Below the pieces are notes generated by a model, which saw nothing but the letters and a program-made list of their open reading frames with translations, had not been told where the DNA came from and did not search any database. The translations under genes were made by a program, and so were the position numbers. This document shows, one piece after another, positions 27,878-55,144 of a stretch of 64,000 nt of DNA. The stretch's first letter is position 1. Each line of letters opens with the position of its first letter. The stretch lies in the NCBI GenBank assembly GCA_016190055.1, contig JACPRH010000057.1, positions 2,434-66,433 of the forward strand, given 5' to 3'. The DNA is from Nitrososphaerota archaeon (lineage in GTDB: Archaea > Thermoproteota > Nitrososphaeria > Nitrososphaerales > JACPRH01).

Positions 27878-30145
27878 TCATCCGTCGGGGTCATCGTCGT
27901 ACTGGTTCTGCTTAATTTCCCAGAAACCTCCTTCCTCGCTTGCCACAACAAAGCTGTAGCCTTCCCCGTAGAAGCCTATTGCTTCACCCTGTTGGTTGGA
28001 GAAGCTTATGCGCCACTGCTTGGTTGGTGAAGTGAAGAAGTCAGCTACGTTGGTGGAGGTTGCGCTTCGCTCGATTATCCAGTGGTAGTTGCTTTGGTCG
28101 TTGATCAGCGCGAGTCTGCGTCCATCAGCTGAGATGTCGGCGCCTGTGATGTAGATGCCTCCAGTAAACTTACCCACGTAGTTCAGCGTGACAACTCGCG
28201 ATGAATCTAAGGTGGGGAATGCGTATACTTCTGTGTCCGACCGCTTCTGCACTAAGTATGGAGTGTCCTGCCAGATGAAAAGAGCCTCAGCGTCACGTGC
28301 TCCGTTAGGGTAGACAAACCTGTAAGCGATTGCCGCTGATGTGTTTGTTTCGCTACCGTAAGGGTCCGGCTCGTCAACCTTGTATAGCACGTAGCTGCTG
28401 TAGACTTCGTCGTTGTCACCTGTATCGCCTATCCATATGTGACCGCTTTCATCTATAGCAATTTCCTCCCAGTCGCGGTTAATTGCTCCAGACACCTCGA
28501 AGACACGTTTGGTGGCTCCTGTCCAATCGATAGCATAGAGGTACGCCGGGTTACCGGAGTCAGACATCATCCAATAAATTCCAGGATATGTTCTAGAGGC
28601 TACGATACCTGACCCTTCTGGCACATAATGGGTACCAAGGCTTGTTGGAGTTACTGAGAGCTCCGTCTCGCTAGTTGTGGTTGTCGTCGTAGTTGAAGTG
28701 GTGGTCGTAGTCGTGGTTGTAATAGTTGAGCTAGTCGTCGTAGTTGATGTAGTTGTAGTGGTGGTTGTGCTTCCGCTGGTAGCCGTGAACTTGTATGTTA
28801 CCTGCGCTATGCCCGTGCTCCACATGCCGTAGTATGTGCTGTTGCTTAGCAGTAGTACTCCGCCTGGCCCTGTCACCTGAACATTCTGTACTCCAGACGA
28901 GTGACCGCTGATCTCCTTGAATGTGACTGTATTGGCTCCTGTCACCACATACGTCGAGATGTCTAGTGAGTAGCCAGTGAACACACCGCTGTTCTGAGGT
29001 GTTTCACTTGCAGGCAGCGTAGATACTACCTGATTGTTAACTAGGACTGTGGCCTCATCCTTGTTGTCGTAGTCGTAGCCTTGGAAGCTTAGGGTGTATT
29101 GTCCATTGGGAGAAGAAGTGGTTGTTGTGGTCGTCGTAGTTGTAGTAGAAGAAGTTGTTGTAGTCGTTGTAGTGATGGTCGTAGTGGATGTTGATGTGCC
29201 GGTGTTGAAGTTGTAGCTTGCAGTGCTTGTACCACCTACCCATAGATCATTGCGCGTGTTGTCGCTAAGCAGCACTACTCCATTTGGCCCGGTTACCTGA
29301 ACAGCCTGTAATCCTGAAGAGTACTGGTTCTGTTTGAATGTAATGGTATTGGCGCCTGACACCACGTAACCAGATATGTCTATTGAGAAGCTCGCCCACG
29401 CATTGTTGTTCTGGGAAGCCCAAGATGCGGGGAGCGTAGCTACCGTTTGGTCGTTCACCAGTATAGTGACTTCGCTCTTGCTGTCATAGTCGTATCCTTG
29501 GAACGATAGTGTGTATGCACCGCTTGGCGGAGAAGTGGTTGTTGTGGTCGTCGTAGAAGTAGAAGTGGAAGAAGTCGTTGTGGTTGTAGTTGTAGTGGTA
29601 GTCGTAGTAGTGGTTGTGGTCGTGGTGTTGCTGGTTAGCGTTGTGGTGGATGTGCTGGTTGTAGCGGCAATGTTGAATTTGTATGTGAGGGGCTGTTTGG
29701 ATCTGCTTACCCAGATTTCGTAATAGGTACTGTTGCTGTAAACTTCGCCATCTGCATTCTTGATCACCACGTTTTTCACTCCTGAGGAGTAAATGTTCTG
29801 ACTGAAGGTTAACGTATTGGCGCCGTTCACTACTAATTCAGAGATGTCGAGTGAGTAGTTGACGAACTGGTCGCTGTTCATAGGAGAATTGCTTGATGGT
29901 AGCGCTGCAACTGGTTGGTTGTTGACCAAGATGGTCACCTCGCCCTTATTGTCGTAGTCGTAGCCTTGGAAGGATAGTGTGTAGGTTGGCGAACTGAAGG
30001 TGCTTATTGTTGGTTCAGTTGCGGGGGTAGAATTTGTGTAGTTGGTAGAGAGAAGCAGAGATACTGTAAGCATTGTAAGTAAAACTGCTGCCACTTTTGT
30101 AATTTTGATATATTTTTCTTTCTTCTGGATGGCTTGAAGCGACAA
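27878..30145 (-). CDS. membrane-anchored surface protein: 3 tandem ~105-aa modules separated by poly-Thr/Ser linkers, plus a C-terminal beta-propeller-like domain
   Basis: 755 aa with an N-terminal hydrophobic anchor (VAAVLLTMLTVSLLL). YTLSFQGYDYD occurs three times (aa 55, 211, 350). Thr/Ser linkers run 30-45 aa. The C-terminal ~255 aa (YWMMSDSGNP..., IWIGDTGDN..., GADISADGRRLAL) resembles phytase-like or SdiA-regulated propellers. Confidence 0.8.
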   Translation of the reverse strand: MSLQAIQKKEKYIKITKVAAVLLTMLTVSLLLSTNYTNSTPATEPTISTFSSPTYTLSFQGYDYDNKGEVTILVNNQPVAALPSSNSPMNSDQFVNYSLDISELVVNGANTLTFSQNIYSSGVKNVVIKNADGEVYSNSTYYEIWVSRSKQPLTYKFNIAATTSTSTTTLTSNTTTTTTTTTTTTTTTTTTSSTSTSTTTTTTTSPPSGAYTLSFQGYDYDSKSEVTILVNDQTVATLPASWASQNNNAWASFSIDISGYVVSGANTITFKQNQYSSGLQAVQVTGPNGVVLLSDNTRNDLWVGGTSTASYNFNTGTSTSTTTITTTTTTTSSTTTTTTTTTTSSPNGQYTLSFQGYDYDNKDEATVLVNNQVVSTLPASETPQNSGVFTGYSLDISTYVVTGANTVTFKEISGHSSGVQNVQVTGPGGVLLLSNSTYYGMWSTGIAQVTYKFTATSGSTTTTTTTSTTTTSSTITTTTTTTTSTTTTTTTSETELSVTPTSLGTHYVPEGSGIVASRTYPGIYWMMSDSGNPAYLYAIDWTGATKRVFEVSGAINRDWEEIAIDESGHIWIGDTGDNDEVYSSYVLYKVDEPDPYGSETNTSAAIAYRFVYPNGARDAEALFIWQDTPYLVQKRSDTEVYAFPTLDSSRVVTLNYVGKFTGGIYITGADISADGRRLALINDQSNYHWIIERSATSTNVADFFTSPTKQWRISFSNQQGEAIGFYGEGYSFVVASEEGGFWEIKQNQYDDDPDG
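28781..29983 (-). repeat. three in-frame tandem copies of a ~105-aa coding module (approx. 29672-29983, 29204-29515, 28781-29098)
   Basis: The Tyr codon that opens the YTLSFQGYDYD motif sits at 29981-83, 29513-15 and 29096-98. The motif is followed each time by EVTILVNNQ..LP...Y/FS(L/I)DIS.(L/Y)VV.GANT(L/I/V)TF...SSG(V/L)Q.V.V. Confidence 0.8.
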
Positions 30146-47591: not shown

Positions 47592-48773
47592 ATGGACGAG
47601 CTTAACCCACCGGAGCGGCTTCTTCTTGGCGCCGGTCCTAGTAATGTTCATCCGCGTGTAGTGAAGGCGTTACTATCCCCGCTTGTAGGTCATCTCGATC
47701 CGTATTTTATCGAGATTATGGATGAGACTAAGAAGCTTCTGGCTAAGGCCTTCAAAACCAAGAATGAGTTTTCTCTTCCGATATCAGGCACAGGAACAGC
47801 CGCCATGGAGGCCGCTATCTGCAACCTTGTTCAAGAGGGAGATGAGGTTATCATTGGTGTTAACGGCTTCTTCGCTCAACGAATGTCCGAGATGGTTCGA
47901 CGGTGGGGCGGCAAAACCCTTGAGATTAAGAAACGCTGGGGCGACGTTACCACTAAGGAAGAAGTTGAGAACCTCTTCAAGAACAGCAACGCTAACCTCG
48001 TCGCGCTGGTTCAAGGTGAAACATCCACCGGTGCACTGCAGCCTCTGCAGGATATTGCTAAAATCGCTCGCGCTTACGACGCGCTGGTGCTTGTGGATAC
48101 GGTTACATCGTTCACAGGTGTCGATCTTGACATAGACGGCTGGGGTATAGATGTCTGTTACAGTAGCCCCCAGAAGTGTCTCAACGCACCCCCAGGCGCT
48201 TCACCCATCACCGTGGGAGACAGAGCGCTGAACCGGATCCGAAACCGTCGTAAGCCAGTGCAGAGCCTCTACTTCGACTTCACGTTGATAGAGCGTTACT
48301 GGAGCGAACGAAGAATGTATCATCACACCGCGCCAATCATGAATGTCTACGCTCTAAGAGAAGCGTTGATGATAGCGCTCGAAGAGGGATTGGACAACAG
48401 AATTGCGAAGTATAAGAGAAACTCCGAGGCGTTAATGGCAGGAGTTGAAGCAGCAGGACTGACGATGAATACAGAGCATCAGTACACGCTACCGTCTCTG
48501 AATGCGGTAAGGGTTCCGGAAGGAGTTGATGCGGACAAGGTGAAGAACATCTTCCTCGACCGGTTCAACACAGAGATCGGCGCCGGCCTAGGCGAGTTAA
48601 AGGGGCAGGTATGGCGAGTCGGCTTAATGGGGCTTAACTCAAGCGAGAGAAACGTTCTCTTCTTCCTAGAGGCGCTCGAAGTTTCGCTGCGGAAGGAGGG
48701 TCATTCGTTAAAGCCTGGCGTAGCGGCTAACGCAGCCGTCGACTACTACGACGCACACCAGCCGATCAACTAG
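47592..48773 (+). CDS. class V aminotransferase (alanine-glyoxylate / serine-pyruvate type)
   Basis: LLLGAGPSNVHPRVVKAL, SGTGTAAMEAA, DTVTSFTG and SSPQKCLNAPPG (PLP lysine). ATG at 47592; a TTG lies 6 nt upstream. Confidence 0.85.
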   Translation: MDELNPPERLLLGAGPSNVHPRVVKALLSPLVGHLDPYFIEIMDETKKLLAKAFKTKNEFSLPISGTGTAAMEAAICNLVQEGDEVIIGVNGFFAQRMSEMVRRWGGKTLEIKKRWGDVTTKEEVENLFKNSNANLVALVQGETSTGALQPLQDIAKIARAYDALVLVDTVTSFTGVDLDIDGWGIDVCYSSPQKCLNAPPGASPITVGDRALNRIRNRRKPVQSLYFDFTLIERYWSERRMYHHTAPIMNVYALREALMIALEEGLDNRIAKYKRNSEALMAGVEAAGLTMNTEHQYTLPSLNAVRVPEGVDADKVKNIFLDRFNTEIGAGLGELKGQVWRVGLMGLNSSERNVLFFLEALEVSLRKEGHSLKPGVAANAAVDYYDAHQPIN

Positions 48774-48781
48774 TGGCTACG

Positions 48782-48932
48782 GGCTCGGTCCAATAATTCA
48801 AGTTCTTGCCTTGTTCTGAACAGTAGTAGTTGCTTTGAGTAATATTTTTTGTTGAGTCTTGAGTCATTTCCGCGTGAATCATTCGCAGTAATAGACCCGC
48901 AGATCTGATAAAATGAATTACTGGACTGAGCC
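48782..48932 (-). mobile_element. MITE copy A (151 bp, 19-bp terminal inverted repeats), flanked by the 9-bp direct repeat GTGGCTACG
   Basis: Termini are GGCTCGGTCCAATAATTCA ... TGAATTACTGGACTGAGCC. GTGGCTACG occurs at 48773-48781 and again at 48933-48941. About 90% identical over the full 151 bp, without indels, to the reverse complement of 51593-51743. Confidence 0.8.
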
Positions 48933-49011
48933 GTGGCTACGTAGAACTTTTTATAGCCCGTTTTAGCGGAGCTGATTGTAGAGGAGTAGCGTAAAGCCTT
49001 TGGGCAAAACG

Positions 49012-50758: not shown

Positions 50759-51238
50759 ATGCAGAGAATTATTCAAGCTGATTCTGAGGAGCTCATCAGC
50801 AAGATTCGAGAGCTGATGAATGAATACGCTGATTCAATGGGTTTCCGTTTTCGAGACTTTGAAAAAGAGATCGCAGAGCTTCCAGGCGAATATGCCCCTC
50901 CTGAAGGACGTCTCCTATTAGCAGTTGAGGATGACATAGCTGCGGGATGCGTAGCGCTGCGGAAGCTCACAGATGAGGTATCAGAAATGAGACGATTATA
51001 CGTGAGACCAGAGTTCCGAGGAAAACGAGTAGGCAGACAATTAGCAACAGCGGCCATCTATCAGGCACGCCTTATCGGTTACAGAAGCATCCGGTTGATA
51101 ACGCTCCCATCTATGGAGAAGGCGGTTGCACTCTACCATTCACTCGGCTTCAAGGAGATACAGCCCTACAGGCAAATTCCCTCAAGCAGCGCAATCTTCA
51201 TGGAACTGCGTTTAAAACAAAACGATAAATGCAGTTAA
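50759..51238 (+). CDS. GNAT family N-acetyltransferase
   Basis: 159 aa: LYVRPEFRGKRVGRQLATAAI acetyl-CoA motif A. Confidence 0.8.
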   Translation: MQRIIQADSEELISKIRELMNEYADSMGFRFRDFEKEIAELPGEYAPPEGRLLLAVEDDIAAGCVALRKLTDEVSEMRRLYVRPEFRGKRVGRQLATAAIYQARLIGYRSIRLITLPSMEKAVALYHSLGFKEIQPYRQIPSSSAIFMELRLKQNDKCS

Positions 51239-51534: not shown

Positions 51535-51592
51535 TTCCTAGAATAACGAAACCGAAGATTTAACAATAGCCTAAAATCTTTCGCTATGCACC

Positions 51593-51743
51593 GGCTCAGT
51601 CCAGTAATTCATTTTATCTGATCGTCGCGTGTATTGCTGCGAATAATTCACGCGGAAGTGACGCAAGACTCAACAAGAAATATTGCTCAAAGCAACTGCT
51701 ACTGTTCAGAACGAGGCTAGAACTTGAATTATTGGACTGAGCC
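51593..51743 (+). mobile_element. MITE copy B (151 bp, 19-bp terminal inverted repeats), flanked by the 9-bp direct repeat CTATGCACC
   Basis: Termini are GGCTCAGTCCAGTAATTCA ... TGAATTATTGGACTGAGCC. CTATGCACC occurs at 51584-51592 and again at 51744-51752. Inverted relative to copy A. Confidence 0.8.
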
Positions 51744-51784
51744 CTATGCACCTTTCAGTTAAAATACGACCCGTTTTTTAACGG

Positions 51785-52438
51785 TTGGTAGAGAACAAAG
51801 TGAAAATCCCATTAAACATAAAGGAGTGGCTAATTCCACAGGATAAAATCTTCTTCTCCCTTTTGGAGGAGCAATCTAGGCTTGTCGTCCAAGGCGCCAA
51901 GCTGCTTAACGATCTTCTACTTGACTACAAGGATGTCGCCAAAAGGCGAAAAGAGATCAAGGAGATTGAGCATAAAGGCGACGAAGTGGTCCATACTATA
52001 CAGGATCGGTTGGCACACACCTTCATCACGCCAATCGACCGTGAAGATATCGATCAGTTGTCATCGCTTTACGATGATGTTCTCGACTTCACTAACACAA
52101 TCGTCAACAAACTATACGCCTACAGAATTACGGAGATAACACGGGAGATGACGCTCTTCGGAGAAGTAATCCTGAAAGCAGTTACTGAGCTAAACGTAGC
52201 CTTCCAAAACATGCGCAGCCTAAACCAAAAGGAGATTGAGCGCAGAAGCGTCGAAGTGCACTTCCTGGAAAACGAGGCTGACGAACTCCTCAACAAATCA
52301 GTCGCCGAACTATTCGAGCAGAAGGACGTAATCCTGATCATCAAATACAAAGAGATATACGAAGATCTTGAAAGATTAACCGATGTCTGTGAAGACGTCA
52401 GCAACCTTCTAAGGGACATAGTGCTTAAGCACTCTTAA
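51785..52438 (+). CDS. DUF47 / PhoU-like putative phosphate transport regulator
   Basis: 217 aa helical protein (IEHKGDEVVH...ITPIDREDI...ENEADEL) immediately upstream of a PiT transporter, the classic DUF47-PiT pair. Confidence 0.75.
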   Translation: MVENKVKIPLNIKEWLIPQDKIFFSLLEEQSRLVVQGAKLLNDLLLDYKDVAKRRKEIKEIEHKGDEVVHTIQDRLAHTFITPIDREDIDQLSSLYDDVLDFTNTIVNKLYAYRITEITREMTLFGEVILKAVTELNVAFQNMRSLNQKEIERRSVEVHFLENEADELLNKSVAELFEQKDVILIIKYKEIYEDLERLTDVCEDVSNLLRDIVLKHS

Positions 52439-52511
52439 ATCTGAGGTACATCACCGCAGAGCAGAAGGAGATTGATGTGACACCTATAGAGGAGATTGGG
52501 TGACAAATTAA

Positions 52512-53513
52512 TTGTTCCTAGACCCATTCATCCTTTCAATCATCGCAGCTGCCTTCCTCTTCGACTTCCTCAACGGCTTTCACGATGCCGCCAACTCTAT
52601 CGCAACGGTCGTCTCAACCCGAGTTCTCGCACCGATCACCGCCGTCGGCATGGCCGCCCTCTTCAACTTCGTCGCCCTCTTCGTATTCCAAACAGGAGTA
52701 GCGTCAACAATCGGTAAAGGCATCGTCAGAGCAGACACCGTTACACCAATAGTTGTGTTAGCAGCCCTCATCAGCGCAATCATCTGGCTATTGGTCACAT
52801 GGTGGTTTGGACTACCTATAAGCTCATCACACTCTCTGATCGGGGGTCTAATCGGCGCAGCCTTCGCCAAAGCCGGTATTGGAGCACTGCTCTCCGGCAA
52901 AATCGAGGTCGTAGTAGTGTTCATCTTCATCTCACCCGTAGCAGGCACCGTTGCAGCATTCCTCCTGATGTCGATGATTATCCGGCTCTTCGGGCATCAG
53001 AGCGCCACTCATGCAAACCGGTACTTCAGACGCCTCCAGATTATTTCTGCATCGCTTTACAGCCTCAGCCACGGAGGGAACGACGCTCAGAAAACAATGG
53101 GCATCGTCGCCCTACTCCTTTTCAGCTCAGGGAATCTTGGCCCAGAGTTTTACGTGCCCTTCTGGGTCGCCATGCTTGCTCACCTAGCTATTGCGCTAGG
53201 AACATTATCAGGAGGATGGCGAATCGTTCGCACAATGGGTGGAAAGATTACGAAGCTTGATCCAATGCACGGCTTCGCCGCTGAAACAGCCGGATCAAGC
53301 ATAGTCATCAGCTCAACCATCCTAGGCGTACCGGTCAGCACCACCCACGTTATCGCAGGCTCAATCATCGGGGTCGGAGCTACCCGTAGACTCTCAGCGG
53401 TCAGGTGGGGAGTCGCTAGAAGAATCGTGTGGAGCTGGGTCATCACTATACCGATCGCAGCCGGTGTTGCAGCGCTGATATATTGGGTTGCTTCACTATT
53501 TTTAGGCGCCTAA
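52512..53513 (+). CDS. pit: inorganic phosphate transporter, PiT (PHO4) family
   Basis: 333 aa with the duplicated signature FLNGFHDAANSIAT / SHGGNDAQKTMG. Polytopic. Confidence 0.9.
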   Translation: MFLDPFILSIIAAAFLFDFLNGFHDAANSIATVVSTRVLAPITAVGMAALFNFVALFVFQTGVASTIGKGIVRADTVTPIVVLAALISAIIWLLVTWWFGLPISSSHSLIGGLIGAAFAKAGIGALLSGKIEVVVVFIFISPVAGTVAAFLLMSMIIRLFGHQSATHANRYFRRLQIISASLYSLSHGGNDAQKTMGIVALLLFSSGNLGPEFYVPFWVAMLAHLAIALGTLSGGWRIVRTMGGKITKLDPMHGFAAETAGSSIVISSTILGVPVSTTHVIAGSIIGVGATRRLSAVRWGVARRIVWSWVITIPIAAGVAALIYWVASLFLGA

Positions 53514-55144
53514 GAAGCGGATTTAGTAATGTAGAATTCATCAATCACCGAGCCATTCTCAGTTTTAATAGCCTTGTAGTGGAGTCTGTTGCCTTCAATT
53601 GATATCTGCAGAAACTCATAAACCGCTGCCCGCCGAGCAGACCAAGTAGGCGCAGGCTGGCTGAACTGGTAGAGACTTTCTCCACCCCCGCCAGTAACCA
53701 CGTAGATAGTACCCTTAGGGTCAACGTACTGCTCGAAGCTGTACGTGGTTTCGGTACCGTTGTAAATAGGGTATGTGCGCTGATAGTTATGATCATGGCC
53801 GGTGAGCACAAGATCCACGTGGTAGCTATCCAGGATCGGAGTCAAGTTCGATCTCAACAAGAGCAGGTTGGGGTAGCGTCCTGAACTGTAAGGAGGAAAA
53901 TGCAGATACACAATTATCCAGTTAATACGCGGATTATTAGAGGCCGCCTTAAGATCCTGGGCAAGCCAGATGTACTGCGGTGCCTTACCGTCAGCGTATG
54001 GAGAAACGTAGAGAGACACGAAATGAGTGTTTCCCCATTCAAACGAGTACCACTGCTCATTCCCCGGAAGCACAAACTGATTAAGATACAAGCTTAGATT
54101 CCCACCCACATTCGCATCAACCTCATGGTTACCTATTGTTGGCAAATAGAGCGCGTTCGATGCGATGGGCTCTATTATCTTGAACCACTTATCCCAAGTT
54201 CCCTGTGAACCGGTGGAGTAAGACAAATCACCTACGGGAAGAGTGAAAGAAGACTTTAGTGCCGACGCTAGCTCAACATTCTTAATGCTGTTCTTAGTTG
54301 TTCCTTGATCAGCAATAGCTGTGAACGTGAAGTTGCGCCCATCAACCGGCGCAGTCTGAAAAGTATGGTCCACACTCCAACCTCCAACCGGGTCGCCGAC
54401 CCTATAATGATAAGTGGTTCCAGGTGTCAGTCCGTCGATCTTCACCCGGTGCAAAACTCCTGCTGAACCCGAGTACGTATATGTGCTACCCATAGCCTGC
54501 GAGCCATACTCAGCACTGGTGCCGTACTCGACAATACTACTGTTTGTAGTACCTCCAGTCTTCCAGACAACCGAGACGGTTACAGAAGGATCGCCCTCCG
54601 TCGAAAGATGAACAGATACAGGAGGTTGGGAGGGAGGAACGGAAGATGTCCTAGTCGTAGTAATAGTAGTAGTTGTGCTGGTCGTTGTATTCTTTGTCGA
54701 AGAGGACACTATGCTACTATTGCTGCTGGTAGTTGTGGTGCTTCGGTTACTAGTAGTTGTACTGGTCTGATTACTTGTCGTGGTTGTAGTGGTACTGCTA
54801 TTAGTGGTAATGGTTGTAACGCTGGTACTTACCGTGGTGTGACTGCTAGTCTTGTTGCTACTAATTGTAGTTGTACGAGTAGATTCACTGGTGTTTGTGC
54901 GGGTAAGGGTGGTTGTTGATGACAATGTTACTGTTGTGGTAGTGTTAGCTGCGGGTATGGCTGTTGATGAAGTCATTGTGGTGCTGGTGGTGTTTGTTGT
55001 GCTGATCGTTGTAGTGGTATAGCCCGGCGTTGGAGGTGGAGTTAGAATTAAAACCGCCGCTATAATTGAGAGTATTGAGATTAGAAGAACGACTGCTATA
55101 ATGATGAACTTGGTTCGTGTCAGCTCGACATTTCTGATCCTCAA
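53510..55144 (-). CDS. membrane-anchored purple acid phosphatase-like metallophosphoesterase with a ~135-aa Thr/Ser stalk
   Basis: 544 aa. TM anchor IIIAVVLLISILSIIAAVLIL, a poly-T/S region (~54630-55036), a PAP N-terminal FN3-like part (VVWKT...YHYRVG), and GDLSY, GNHE and GHDHNYQR metallophosphatase motifs. Confidence 0.8.
   Translation of the reverse strand: MRIRNVELTRTKFIIIAVVLLISILSIIAAVLILTPPPTPGYTTTTISTTNTTSTTMTSSTAIPAANTTTTVTLSSTTTLTRTNTSESTRTTTISSNKTSSHTTVSTSVTTITTNSSTTTTTTSNQTSTTTSNRSTTTTSSNSSIVSSSTKNTTTSTTTTITTTRTSSVPPSQPPVSVHLSTEGDPSVTVSVVWKTGGTTNSSIVEYGTSAEYGSQAMGSTYTYSGSAGVLHRVKIDGLTPGTTYHYRVGDPVGGWSVDHTFQTAPVDGRNFTFTAIADQGTTKNSIKNVELASALKSSFTLPVGDLSYSTGSQGTWDKWFKIIEPIASNALYLPTIGNHEVDANVGGNLSLYLNQFVLPGNEQWYSFEWGNTHFVSLYVSPYADGKAPQYIWLAQDLKAASNNPRINWIIVYLHFPPYSSGRYPNLLLLRSNLTPILDSYHVDLVLTGHDHNYQRTYPIYNGTETTYSFEQYVDPKGTIYVVTGGGGESLYQFSQPAPTWSARRAAVYEFLQISIEGNRLHYKAIKTENGSVIDEFYITKSAS

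What the first reader, a model, noticed from the sequence alone, without database searches (positions are those of the whole stretch)
51584..51752. MITE copy B: same 151-bp family in opposite orientation, with a different 9-bp duplication, about 40 bp upstream of the DUF47-PiT phosphate operon
Positions 51593-51743 have termini GGCTCAGTCCAGTAATTCA / TGAATTATTGGACTGAGCC and are flanked by CTATGCACC on both sides (51584-92 and 51744-52). Aligned to the reverse complement of copy A, it has the same length with no indels and about 15 substitutions, roughly 90% identity. A different TSD at each copy means two independent transposition events, and the divergence suggests they are not recent. The element ends 41 nt before the DUF47 start, leaving only TTAAAATA (~51759-66) as a candidate TATA box. 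The native upstream promoter context of a phosphate-uptake operon has therefore been displaced.
Basis: seen in the sequence. Interest (0 to 1): 0.65.

Follow-up and report, generated by a model that had tools for sequence, protein, structure and literature searches.

The report
Small mobile element beside archaeal promoter
This is a genuine 151-bp non-coding "jumping" DNA element (a MITE) that inserted just upstream of the intact core promoter of a phosphate-uptake operon in an uncultured archaeon. It is absent from the same spot in near-identical strains, and it is a well-proven but ordinary kind of element.

Summary
Copy B is at 51593-51743 (151 bp), with 19-bp terminal inverted repeats and CTATGCACC on both sides. 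It is 90.1% identical to inverted copy A (48782-48932), with 15 substitutions and no indels.

The MITE reading is proven. Related strains (98.4-99.9% identical) have empty sites that lack exactly 160 bp and keep one copy of the 9-mer, at both A and B. Other copies in metagenomes carry different perfect 9-bp duplications.

- B is not old. It is present or absent among ~99.9% identical strains, and in one run both alleles occur together.
- The promoter is not disrupted. The block CCTTTCAGTTAAAATAC (BRE/TATA-like) is conserved in an 85%-identity relative at the same distance from the GTG start (51800, not TTG 51785), and it begins at the last 2 nt of the duplication. Only unconserved spacer was displaced.

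The host is an archaeon, probably Nitrososphaerota. No parent transposase was found. The ends match IS903 ends at 12-14 of 19 positions, and IS903 also makes 9-bp duplications, so an IS5/IS903-group parent is the best lead. No expression data exist. This is a new member of a known kind, of low to moderate interest.

The parts
51584..51592 (.). Left copy of the 9-bp target-site duplication CTATGCACC of copy B
   Evidence: It is a single copy in the empty-site strains L068 and L072.
51593..51743 (+). MITE copy B, 151 bp, 43.7% GC, with no transposase-sized ORF
   Evidence: It is missing exactly, together with one 9-mer, in related strains.
51593..51611 (+). Left terminal inverted repeat GGCTCAGTCCAGTAATTCA
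   Evidence: The left 26 nt are 85% invariant among 5 copies. It matches the IS903 ends at 12-13 of 19 positions.
51725..51743 (-). Right terminal inverted repeat (GGCTCAGTCCAATAATTCA on the minus strand)
   Evidence: The right 45 nt are 80% invariant. It matches the IS903 ends at 13-14 of 19 positions.
51662..51727 (+). Possible relic 3' end of the parent transposase ORF (about 21 codons, RKTQQEILLKATATVQNEART, ending at TGA 51725-27, the inner 3 nt of the right repeat)
   Evidence: The frame is open in 4 of 5 copies, and 5 of 6 substitutions in the last 7 codons are synonymous. This is weak and post hoc, and there is no family hit.
51744..51752 (.). Right copy of the target-site duplication CTATGCACC
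   Evidence: The joint in empty-site contigs has 9 letters that fit either side.
51751..51767 (+). Conserved core-promoter block CCTTTCAGTTAAAATAC (BRE-like sequence plus the TATA-like box TTAAAATA at 51759-66) of the DUF47-PiT operon
   Evidence: It is conserved as CCTTTCAATTAAAATAC, 31 nt before the GTG, in L075/L076 (85% protein identity). Sequence upstream of it is unrelated. The alignment of a diverged X13 strain resumes at 51750.
51800..52438 (+). DUF47/PhoU_div gene with a GTG start (212 aa)
   Evidence: Pfam PF01865. Gene calls give 212 aa. Homologues are 208-212 aa.
52512..53513 (+). PiT-type phosphate transporter (PHO4 family)
   Evidence: Pfam PF01384, E = 1e-92.
48773..48781 (.). 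Left copy of the target-site duplication GTGGCTACG of copy A. Its first G is the last base of the aminotransferase stop codon TAG.
   Evidence: The empty site reads GTGGCTGCG in L071-L074.
48782..48932 (-). MITE copy A, 151 bp, opposite orientation, 90.1% identical to B
   Evidence: The site is filled in L057 (97.9% identical flanks) and empty in L071-L074, X13 and X15.
48933..48941 (.). Right copy of the target-site duplication GTGGCTACG
48948..48955 (+). TATA-like box TTTTTATA of the leuC/leuD-like operon, 6 nt after copy A's duplication, the same spacing as at site B
   Evidence: TTTTTATA is also present upstream of leuC in relative L079.

Best explanation

Shown:
- It has 19-bp terminal inverted repeats.
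- It is dispersed at unrelated loci, and each copy has its own perfect 9-bp duplication.
- Closely related strains have the exact unoccupied sites with one copy of the 9-mer.
- It therefore arrived by transposition with a 9-bp staggered cut of the target followed by gap repair.

Inferred:
- It is moved in trans by a DDE transposase encoded elsewhere, most likely of the IS5 family, IS903 group. That group has the same duplication length, the same GGC outer end, and 12-14 of 19 terminal bases in common.
- The insertion at B is evolutionarily recent and still polymorphic in natural groundwater and soil populations.
- It landed 6 nt upstream of the TATA-like box of the DUF47-PiT operon. Because the 9-bp duplication restores native sequence next to the promoter, 15 nt of original sequence upstream of the TATA box remain, including the BRE position. 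The core archaeal promoter is intact and the insertion is probably neutral or nearly so for phosphate-operon expression. Copy A has the same geometry relative to the leuCD-like operon.
For: Anatomy is confirmed, and the terminus occurs 4 times against 0.01 expected.

Six further copies in metagenome contigs are all 150-151 bp and 75-94% identical.

Four sites have perfect, different 9-bp duplications: CTATGCACC, GTGGCTACG, CGCTAATAC and GGGACATAG.

Empty sites:
- L072, the X6 contig (98.4% identical), skips exactly 160 bp at both A and B.
- L068 (99.9% identical) is empty at B.
- L071, L073 and L074 are empty at A.
- Further joints are seen in X10, X13 and X15.
- More distant relatives (77-85% protein identity) have no element, so the empty state is ancestral.

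The ends are more conserved than the interior: 85% and 80% invariant at the ends against 52% inside.

There is no RNA-family hit and no covariation. The covariation term is +1.52, and the terminal repeats carry uncompensated mismatches.

Neither the element nor the window encodes a transposase.

IS903 comparison: 12-14 of 19 positions match, in register. A shuffle gives P = 3e-4. None of 7,051 GG-starting 19-mers in the window reaches 14. Ends of IS1, IS10, IS50, IS5, IS26 and IS4 score 1-10. IS903B makes 9-bp duplications (PMC13618097).

The promoter block is conserved downstream of the insertion point.
Against: No autonomous element with these ends was found in anything I could search, so mobilisation in trans and the IS903-group assignment are inferred.

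The comparison ends for IS families other than IS903 were recalled from memory, and IS903 itself was chosen because I remembered the resemblance.

Only two copies at 80% identity or better exist in the window's own genome, which is low for a MITE family.

The empty B allele could in principle result from precise excision.

No transcript data exist, so neutrality for expression is untested. The element carries TATA-like stretches, for example ATAAAATG facing out of its left end, that could act as promoters.
Confidence: 0.85

Rival explanations
1. The element is a MITE, but it does change regulation of the DUF47-PiT operon. It could separate the core promoter from an upstream regulator site, supply an outward-facing promoter, or supply a terminator or RNA hairpin.
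For: The insertion lies 6 nt from the TATA-like box, so anything more than 15 nt upstream of it has been moved 160 bp away. The element contains AT-rich TATA-like stretches and folds strongly if transcribed (-51.8 kcal/mol, z = -5.1). Bacterial MITEs such as Correia elements are known to carry promoters (PMC10969869).
Against: Sequence upstream of the conserved block is not conserved in the 85% relative or in a diverged X13 strain, so there is no sign of a conserved upstream operator. The filled allele is the only one seen in the contigs of three deep groundwater runs and also occurs in a soil run from another study, so it is at least tolerated. A T6 run (51773-78) lies between the TATA-like box and the expected start site and would tend to stop read-through from the element; this last point is inference.
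Confidence: 0.2
2. The empty B sites are secondary. On this view B is an old insertion that was lost by precise excision (slippage between the two 9-mers, helped by the terminal hairpin) in some strains, as the first reader's 'not recent' would require.
For: Direct repeats that flank a palindromic element are a known substrate for precise excision (established knowledge for Tn10 and Tn5). Filled B occurs in several studies and biomes.
Against: It would need independent exact losses in the 99.9% strain (L068), in the 98.4% lineage (L072) and in X10/X15, at both A and B in L072. All outgroups are empty. A B-like copy (6 differences) sits at another locus in X6 and X10, where site B is empty, which would fit a source copy.
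Confidence: 0.1
3. The repeat is a functional structured RNA or protein-binding regulatory module placed upstream of operons, not a mobile element.
For: Both window copies sit immediately upstream of operon promoters at identical spacing, 6 nt from a TATA-like box. The predicted fold is strong.
Against: There is presence/absence polymorphism with exact 9-bp duplications. The two copies have opposite orientations relative to the downstream gene. L049's copy lies at the 3' end of a convergent ORF. There is no Rfam match and no covariation, and the terminal 'stem' accumulates A-C mismatches.
Confidence: 0.02
4. The parent transposase is not IS903-like but belongs to another family that makes 8-9-bp duplications (IS4/IS10-IS50 group, IS1 or IS256).
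For: No parent was found. IS1, IS4 and IS5 all occur in Thaumarchaeota (PMC6563490). Terminal similarity of 12-14 of 19 positions is modest, and IS ends can converge.
Against: The ends of IS1, IS10, IS50 and IS4 match at only 1-6 of 19 positions, against 12-14 for IS903. The outer GGC is shared with IS903.
Confidence: 0.35

Closest known systems
Prokaryotic MITEs in general, including the archaeal ones of Sulfolobus, Halobacterium and Haloquadratum (reviewed in PMC10969869; census of 18,091 archaeal MITEs in PMC11602168)
   Same: Size within the 50-800 bp range, terminal inverted repeats, flanking duplications of 2-10 bp, no transposase, intergenic location, several copies, and strong predicted hairpin.
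   Different: This sequence family has no match in the plasmid or phage collections, or in one genome per species of GTDB at the level of its terminus. Copy number is very low, at two per genome. No parent element is known. I could not check it against the published archaeal MITE sequence sets.
IS903 / IS903B (IS5 family, IS903 group; 1,057 bp, 18-bp ends GGCTTTGTTGAATAAATC, 9-bp duplication)
   Same: 9-bp target duplication, the outer GGC, and 12-14 of 19 terminal bases identical in register.
   Different: IS903 is an autonomous bacterial element that encodes a 322-aa DDE transposase. The MITE has no such gene. Its subterminal sequence and relic ORF tail do not resemble IS903. The host is an archaeon.
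Correia elements of Neisseria (MITEs that sit upstream of genes and carry promoters or IHF sites)
   Same: A small inverted-repeat element found immediately upstream of genes, which raises the question of promoter effects (PMC10969869).
   Different: Correia elements duplicate TA, carry sigma-70 promoters and number in the hundreds. Here the duplication is 9 bp, the host uses BRE/TATA promoters, and no promoter activity has been shown.

Membership tests
MITE (non-autonomous class II element of prokaryotes) | Short length (about 50-800 bp) with no transposase gene | tested here: met
   The element is 151 bp. All six frames are either interrupted or too short to encode a transposase, and none has a family hit.
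MITE (non-autonomous class II element of prokaryotes) | Terminal inverted repeats of at least 10-15 bp | tested here: met
   The repeats are 19 bp, matching at 18/19 in B. They are conserved in all copies.
MITE (non-autonomous class II element of prokaryotes) | Target-site duplication of fixed length whose sequence differs between copies | tested here: met
   Four sites have perfect 9-bp duplications, all different.
MITE (non-autonomous class II element of prokaryotes) | Evidence of mobility: unoccupied orthologous sites with one copy of the target | tested here: met
   Seen in L068, L072, L071/L073/L074, X10, X13 and X15. Exactly 160 bp are absent.
MITE (non-autonomous class II element of prokaryotes) | Multiple dispersed copies | tested here: met
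   At least 5 sequenced sites, plus further junctions seen as loose ends. Only 2 copies occur in the window's own genome.
MITE (non-autonomous class II element of prokaryotes) | A cognate autonomous insertion sequence with the same ends | tested here: inconclusive
   None was found in the window, in 80 fetched loci, or in the genome, metagenome and viral pattern scans. The candidate pairs turned out to be chance matches crossed by ORFs. Whole assemblies of the host could not be searched.
IS5 family, IS903 group (as the parent) | 9-bp target-site duplication | tested here: met
   9 bp at four sites. IS903B gives 9 bp (PMC13618097).
IS5 family, IS903 group (as the parent) | Ends beginning GGC and resembling the IS903 inverted repeat | tested here: met
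   12-14 of 19 identical in register. Shuffle P = 3e-4. None of 7,051 control 19-mers reaches 14. The similarity is modest, and the comparison target was picked from memory.
IS5 family, IS903 group (as the parent) | DDE transposase (Pfam DDE_Tnp_1) that acts on these ends | not testable with these tools
   No parent element was retrieved. The relic peptide has no hit and does not match the IS903 C-terminus.
Structured non-coding RNA or riboswitch-like leader | Match to a known RNA family, or base pairs kept by compensatory changes | tested here: not met
   No Rfam match at gathering score. One compensatory pair out of 37, and a covariation term of +1.52.

The most novel reading that the evidence does not exclude
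The transposase that moves this family may prefer the upstream edge of archaeal core promoters. Both window copies have their 9-bp target ending exactly 6 nt before a TATA-like box, and all four fully known sites have an AT-rich octamer 3-9 nt from the target. That would suggest recognition of TBP/TFB-bent or AT-flanked DNA. It would make this a promoter-targeting transposon family in Nitrososphaerota, able to rewire upstream regulation without destroying promoters.
Probability: 0.08. Interest if true: 0.6.

Novelty: new member of a known kind. Interest (0 to 1): 0.25.

Why it matters
This is a clean natural example of an active, still-segregating MITE in an uncultured archaeal lineage, probably Nitrososphaerota. 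The 2019 survey of that phylum's mobile elements lists insertion sequences but does not mention MITEs (PMC6563490). The filled and empty alleles occur in public groundwater and soil metagenomes. They could therefore serve as a strain marker, and as a natural experiment on whether an insertion 6 nt from a TATA box changes expression of a phosphate-uptake operon. Beyond that it is an ordinary transposable element, and no function for the host has been demonstrated.

Tried and rejected
1. Parent element by DNA pattern:
- The terminus scan of genome contigs gave 25 single matches, consistent with chance. The Bathyarchaeia hit L007 lies inside a coding region.
- The viral-contig scan gave one isolated hit.
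- The single-terminus metagenome loci were screened for a second degenerate terminus. L043, L064 and L008 had IS-like spacing, but ORFs cross the boundaries.
- L050 shares 24 nt, but that is the start of a coding sequence in low-GC DNA.
- A weak hit in L079 lies inside a Zn-ribbon gene.

2. The window itself holds no transposase.

3. Distant blastn of the element against plasmids and phages gave no match.

4. Relic-ORF peptides against Pfam and PHROGs gave nothing. I did not spend a 5.8-billion-protein search on a 21-aa peptide, because it could not reach significance.

5. RNA runs for transcript mapping: none are served.

6. Structured-RNA reading: rejected.

7. The sigma-70 and intrinsic-terminator scan is a bacterial model and is uninformative for an archaeon.

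8. Target preference: CTA or TAG is present in all four duplications (about 0.002 by a rough count), but further flanks seen as loose ends do not all show it. The AT-rich box near the target is found at 4 of 4 sites against a 30% intergenic background (P about 0.008, post hoc). Selection in 80-105-nt spacers could produce the same pattern, so I make no claim.

9. Composite-transposon reading of A plus B flanking leuCD-GNAT-acylphosphatase: rejected. Each copy has its own duplication, the outer flanks differ, and empty-site strains have the same gene order.

Full report
**Observation**

- Copy B is at 51593-51743 (151 bp, 43.7% GC, against 49.8% for the window).
- It starts GGCTCAGTCCAGTAATTCA and ends TGAATTATTGGACTGAGCC, an 18/19 inverted repeat.
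- It is flanked by CTATGCACC at 51584-92 and 51744-52.
- Copy A is at 48782-48932 in the opposite orientation, flanked by GTGGCTACG at 48773-81 and 48933-41.
- B against the reverse complement of A has 15 substitutions, no indels and 90.1% identity.
- The terminus occurs four times in the window at up to 3 mismatches, against 0.01 expected. These four are the ends of A and B, and the window holds no other copy.

**The family exists elsewhere, and each site has its own 9-mer**

A scan of metagenome contigs for the terminus found contigs with two termini at exactly the 151-bp geometry. BLAST of the whole element against all fetched loci gave six more copies, 150-151 bp long and 75-94% identical.

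| Site | 9-bp duplication | Notes |
|---|---|---|
| B | CTATGCACC | window |
| A and L057 | GTGGCTACG | L057 is the orthologous site A in a strain with 97.9% identical flanks |
| L056 | CGCTAATAC | new site |
| L034 / L035 | GGGACATAG | same site in both; a more distant subfamily, 78% identical to B |
| L049 | not known | copy cut by the contig end, at yet another flank |

All four known duplications are perfect and different. Contig ends in other runs show several more junctions.

**Empty sites**

This is the decisive evidence.
- Run X6 holds a 3,055-bp contig, fetched as L072, that is 98.4% identical to the window. It skips exactly 160 bp at both sites (48773-48932 and 51584-51743). At B, 9 letters fit either side of the joint.
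- Read directly, L072 and L068 have ...TCTTTCG CTATGCACC TTTCAG..., and L071-L074 have ...CAACTA GTGGCTGCG TAGAAC..., each with one copy of the 9-mer.
- L068 is 99.9% identical to the window on both sides of B.
- Further empty joints appear in other studies: A in X13 and X15, B in X10 and X15. In X15 a contig with the filled B allele (0 differences) occurs alongside the empty joint.
- More distant relatives (DUF47 77-85% identical) keep the same gene order and have no element, so the empty state is ancestral.

**Age**

That does not follow, because the two copies come from different source subfamilies.
- B is polymorphic among strains about 99.9% identical.
- A is polymorphic among lineages about 2% apart: filled in L057, empty in L071-L074.
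- A B-like copy with 6 differences sits at another locus in X6 and X10, where site B is empty.
- In the three deep source runs, depth over the element (about 93) equals B (44) plus A (49). The window's genome therefore carries only these two copies at 80% identity or better.

**Host and context**

The window encodes a thermosome subunit (812 bits) and an archaeal-type CCA-adding enzyme, both above curated cut-offs. It also encodes exosome, proteasome and F420-biosynthesis genes and has no transposase. The closest named DUF47 homologue (81% identity) is labelled Nitrososphaerales archaeon. That label rests on a database name, not on a phylogeny. The window is found in groundwater, soil and sediment metagenomes.

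The local gene order is:
- class-V aminotransferase
- copy A
- aconitase-family large and small subunits (leuC/leuD-like)
- GNAT acetyltransferase
- acylphosphatase
- copy B
- DUF47/PhoU_div
- PiT (PHO4 family)
- a purple acid phosphatase on the other strand

**Promoter geometry**

The DUF47 start is most likely GTG 51800, not TTG 51785. Gene calls on identical contigs give 212 aa, homologues are 208-212 aa, and the orthologue in L075 has the GTG but no in-frame TTG.

In L075/L076 (85% protein identity) the block CCTTTCAATTAAAATAC lies 31 nt before the GTG. In the window, CCTTTCAGTTAAAATAC (51751-67) lies 32 nt before it. Upstream of the block the two sequences are unrelated. The other orthologues also keep a TAAAATA box 36-40 nt before the start. 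A diverged X13 strain has a different spacer, and its alignment to the window resumes at 51750.

So TTAAAATA is very probably the native TATA box, with the BRE position just before it. The insertion point is at the upstream edge of this block: the last two bases of the duplication are its first two. Because the duplication restores native sequence, 15 nt upstream of the TATA box are original.

Copy A shows the same geometry. Its duplication ends 6 nt before TTTTTATA (48948-55) upstream of leuC, and that box is also present in L079.

The claim that the promoter context was displaced is therefore true only for unconserved spacer. No RNA run holding the locus could be listed, so expression effects remain untested.

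**Not an RNA element**

There is no Rfam hit. The strong fold (z = -5.1 and -4.2) is due to the terminal repeats. Across five copies the covariation term is +1.52, only 1 of 37 pairs is compensatory, and the terminal 'stem' carries A-C mismatches. The ends are conserved (85% and 80% invariant columns) and the interior is not (52%). That is the pattern expected of transposase-binding ends.

**Parent element**

None was found. I tested a lead recalled from memory:
- IS903, retrieved as L081:1201-2257, is 1,057 bp with perfect 18-bp ends GGCTTTGTTGAATAAATC. It is annotated as an IS5-like IS903-family transposase.
- The MITE ends match the IS903 ends at 12-14 of 19 positions in register from the outermost base.
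- A shuffle gives P = 3e-4 for 12 or more matches. None of 7,051 GG-starting 19-mers in the window reaches 14, and 0.4% reach 12.
- Ends of IS1, IS10, IS50, IS5, IS26 and IS4 score 1-10. Those sequences were recalled from memory, so this is a rough control.
- IS903B makes 9-bp duplications (PMC13618097).
- IS5-family elements occur in Thaumarchaeota (PMC6563490).

An IS5/IS903-group-like parent is therefore the best lead, at about even odds.

One frame of the element keeps an open tail of about 21 codons that ends at a TGA, the inner three bases of the right repeat. Substitutions in its last 7 codons are mostly synonymous. This may be a relic of the transposase 3' end, but it is weak, it was noticed post hoc, and it has no database support.

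**Mechanism**

Shown: insertion with a 9-bp staggered target cut. Inferred: the cut was made by a DDE transposase supplied in trans, which recognises the conserved 19-bp ends and subterminal sequence, and the gaps were then repaired to give the duplication. The element is retained where it does no harm, which here is the few bases between the upstream gene and the next core promoter.

**Comparison and novelty**

MITEs are well known in bacteria and archaea (PMC10969869). A 2024 census found 18,091 in 8,220 archaeal genomes (PMC11602168). The 2019 survey of thaumarchaeal mobile elements lists 244 insertion sequences from 13 families and does not mention MITEs (PMC6563490). This family has no match in the collections I could search.

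It is a new member of a known kind. Its merit is the unusually complete proof (filled and empty alleles at two sites) and its position against two promoters. Its interest is low to moderate.

Noticed in passing
L063:887-1770 (compare window 51725-52476 and L034:1507-2281): Contig L063 joins an L034-type element body and the L034 flank to the right flank of site B (99.87% identical to the window). The two sources share 24 identical nt at the junction (the terminal repeat plus CTATG). This is probably an assembly chimera across the repeat. A real recombinant between copies is not excluded.
   Followed up: partly
window 51541/51542; L073:2654-2879, L074:2654-2811, end of L071: L071, L073 and L074 follow the window up to CTAG at 51541, just after the acylphosphatase stop codon, where L071 ends; L073 and L074 then continue with unrelated sequence that includes a partial 72-aa ORF with no Pfam hit. 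L073 is 99.7% identical to L072 up to that point. This is a second structural polymorphism in the same spacer, possibly another insertion or a rearrangement.
   Followed up: partly
window 48957-48969 and 51770-51784: Both promoters next to the two copies share CCCGTTTT followed by A(G/A)CGG just after the TATA-like box, and then T(T/G)GTAGAG(G/A)A. CCCGTTTT occurs only 3 times in the window (1.4 expected). This may be a shared promoter-proximal motif or chance.
   Followed up: partly
window 48834-48855 (columns 78-99 of alignment A2): The window's copy A and its orthologue in L057 differ at 9 positions, 8 of them within 22 nt. L057 and the L049 copy are nearly identical there. The patch looks like gene conversion between copies rather than point-by-point drift.
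   Followed up: no
window 48771-48781: Copy A's target overlaps the stop codon of the aminotransferase gene: the G of TAG is the first base of the duplication. The duplication preserves the stop codon, so the insertion sits flush against the end of the gene.
   Followed up: yes
window 27878-30145 (minus strand) and 54600-55020: A 755-aa ORF with no Pfam hit contains three roughly 420-nt repeats plus long runs of GTNGTNGTN-type triplets. On the coding strand these give Thr/Asn/Tyr-rich low-complexity protein. Similar low-complexity sequence lies in the N-terminal part of the purple acid phosphatase gene. These probably encode surface or secreted proteins.
   Followed up: no
window 50759-51238: The longest ORF for the GNAT acetyltransferase is 159 aa, from ATG 50759. 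Gene callers on identical contigs aa, so the start is probably further downstream.
   Followed up: no
window 51612-51619 (minus strand) and 48908-48915 (plus strand): The left end of the element carries ATAAAATG, a TATA-like stretch that faces outward about 20 nt from the tip. It is kept in 4 of 5 copies. In copy A it points toward leuC, and in copy B it points antisense into the acylphosphatase gene. It could be an outward promoter, but this is untested.
   Followed up: no
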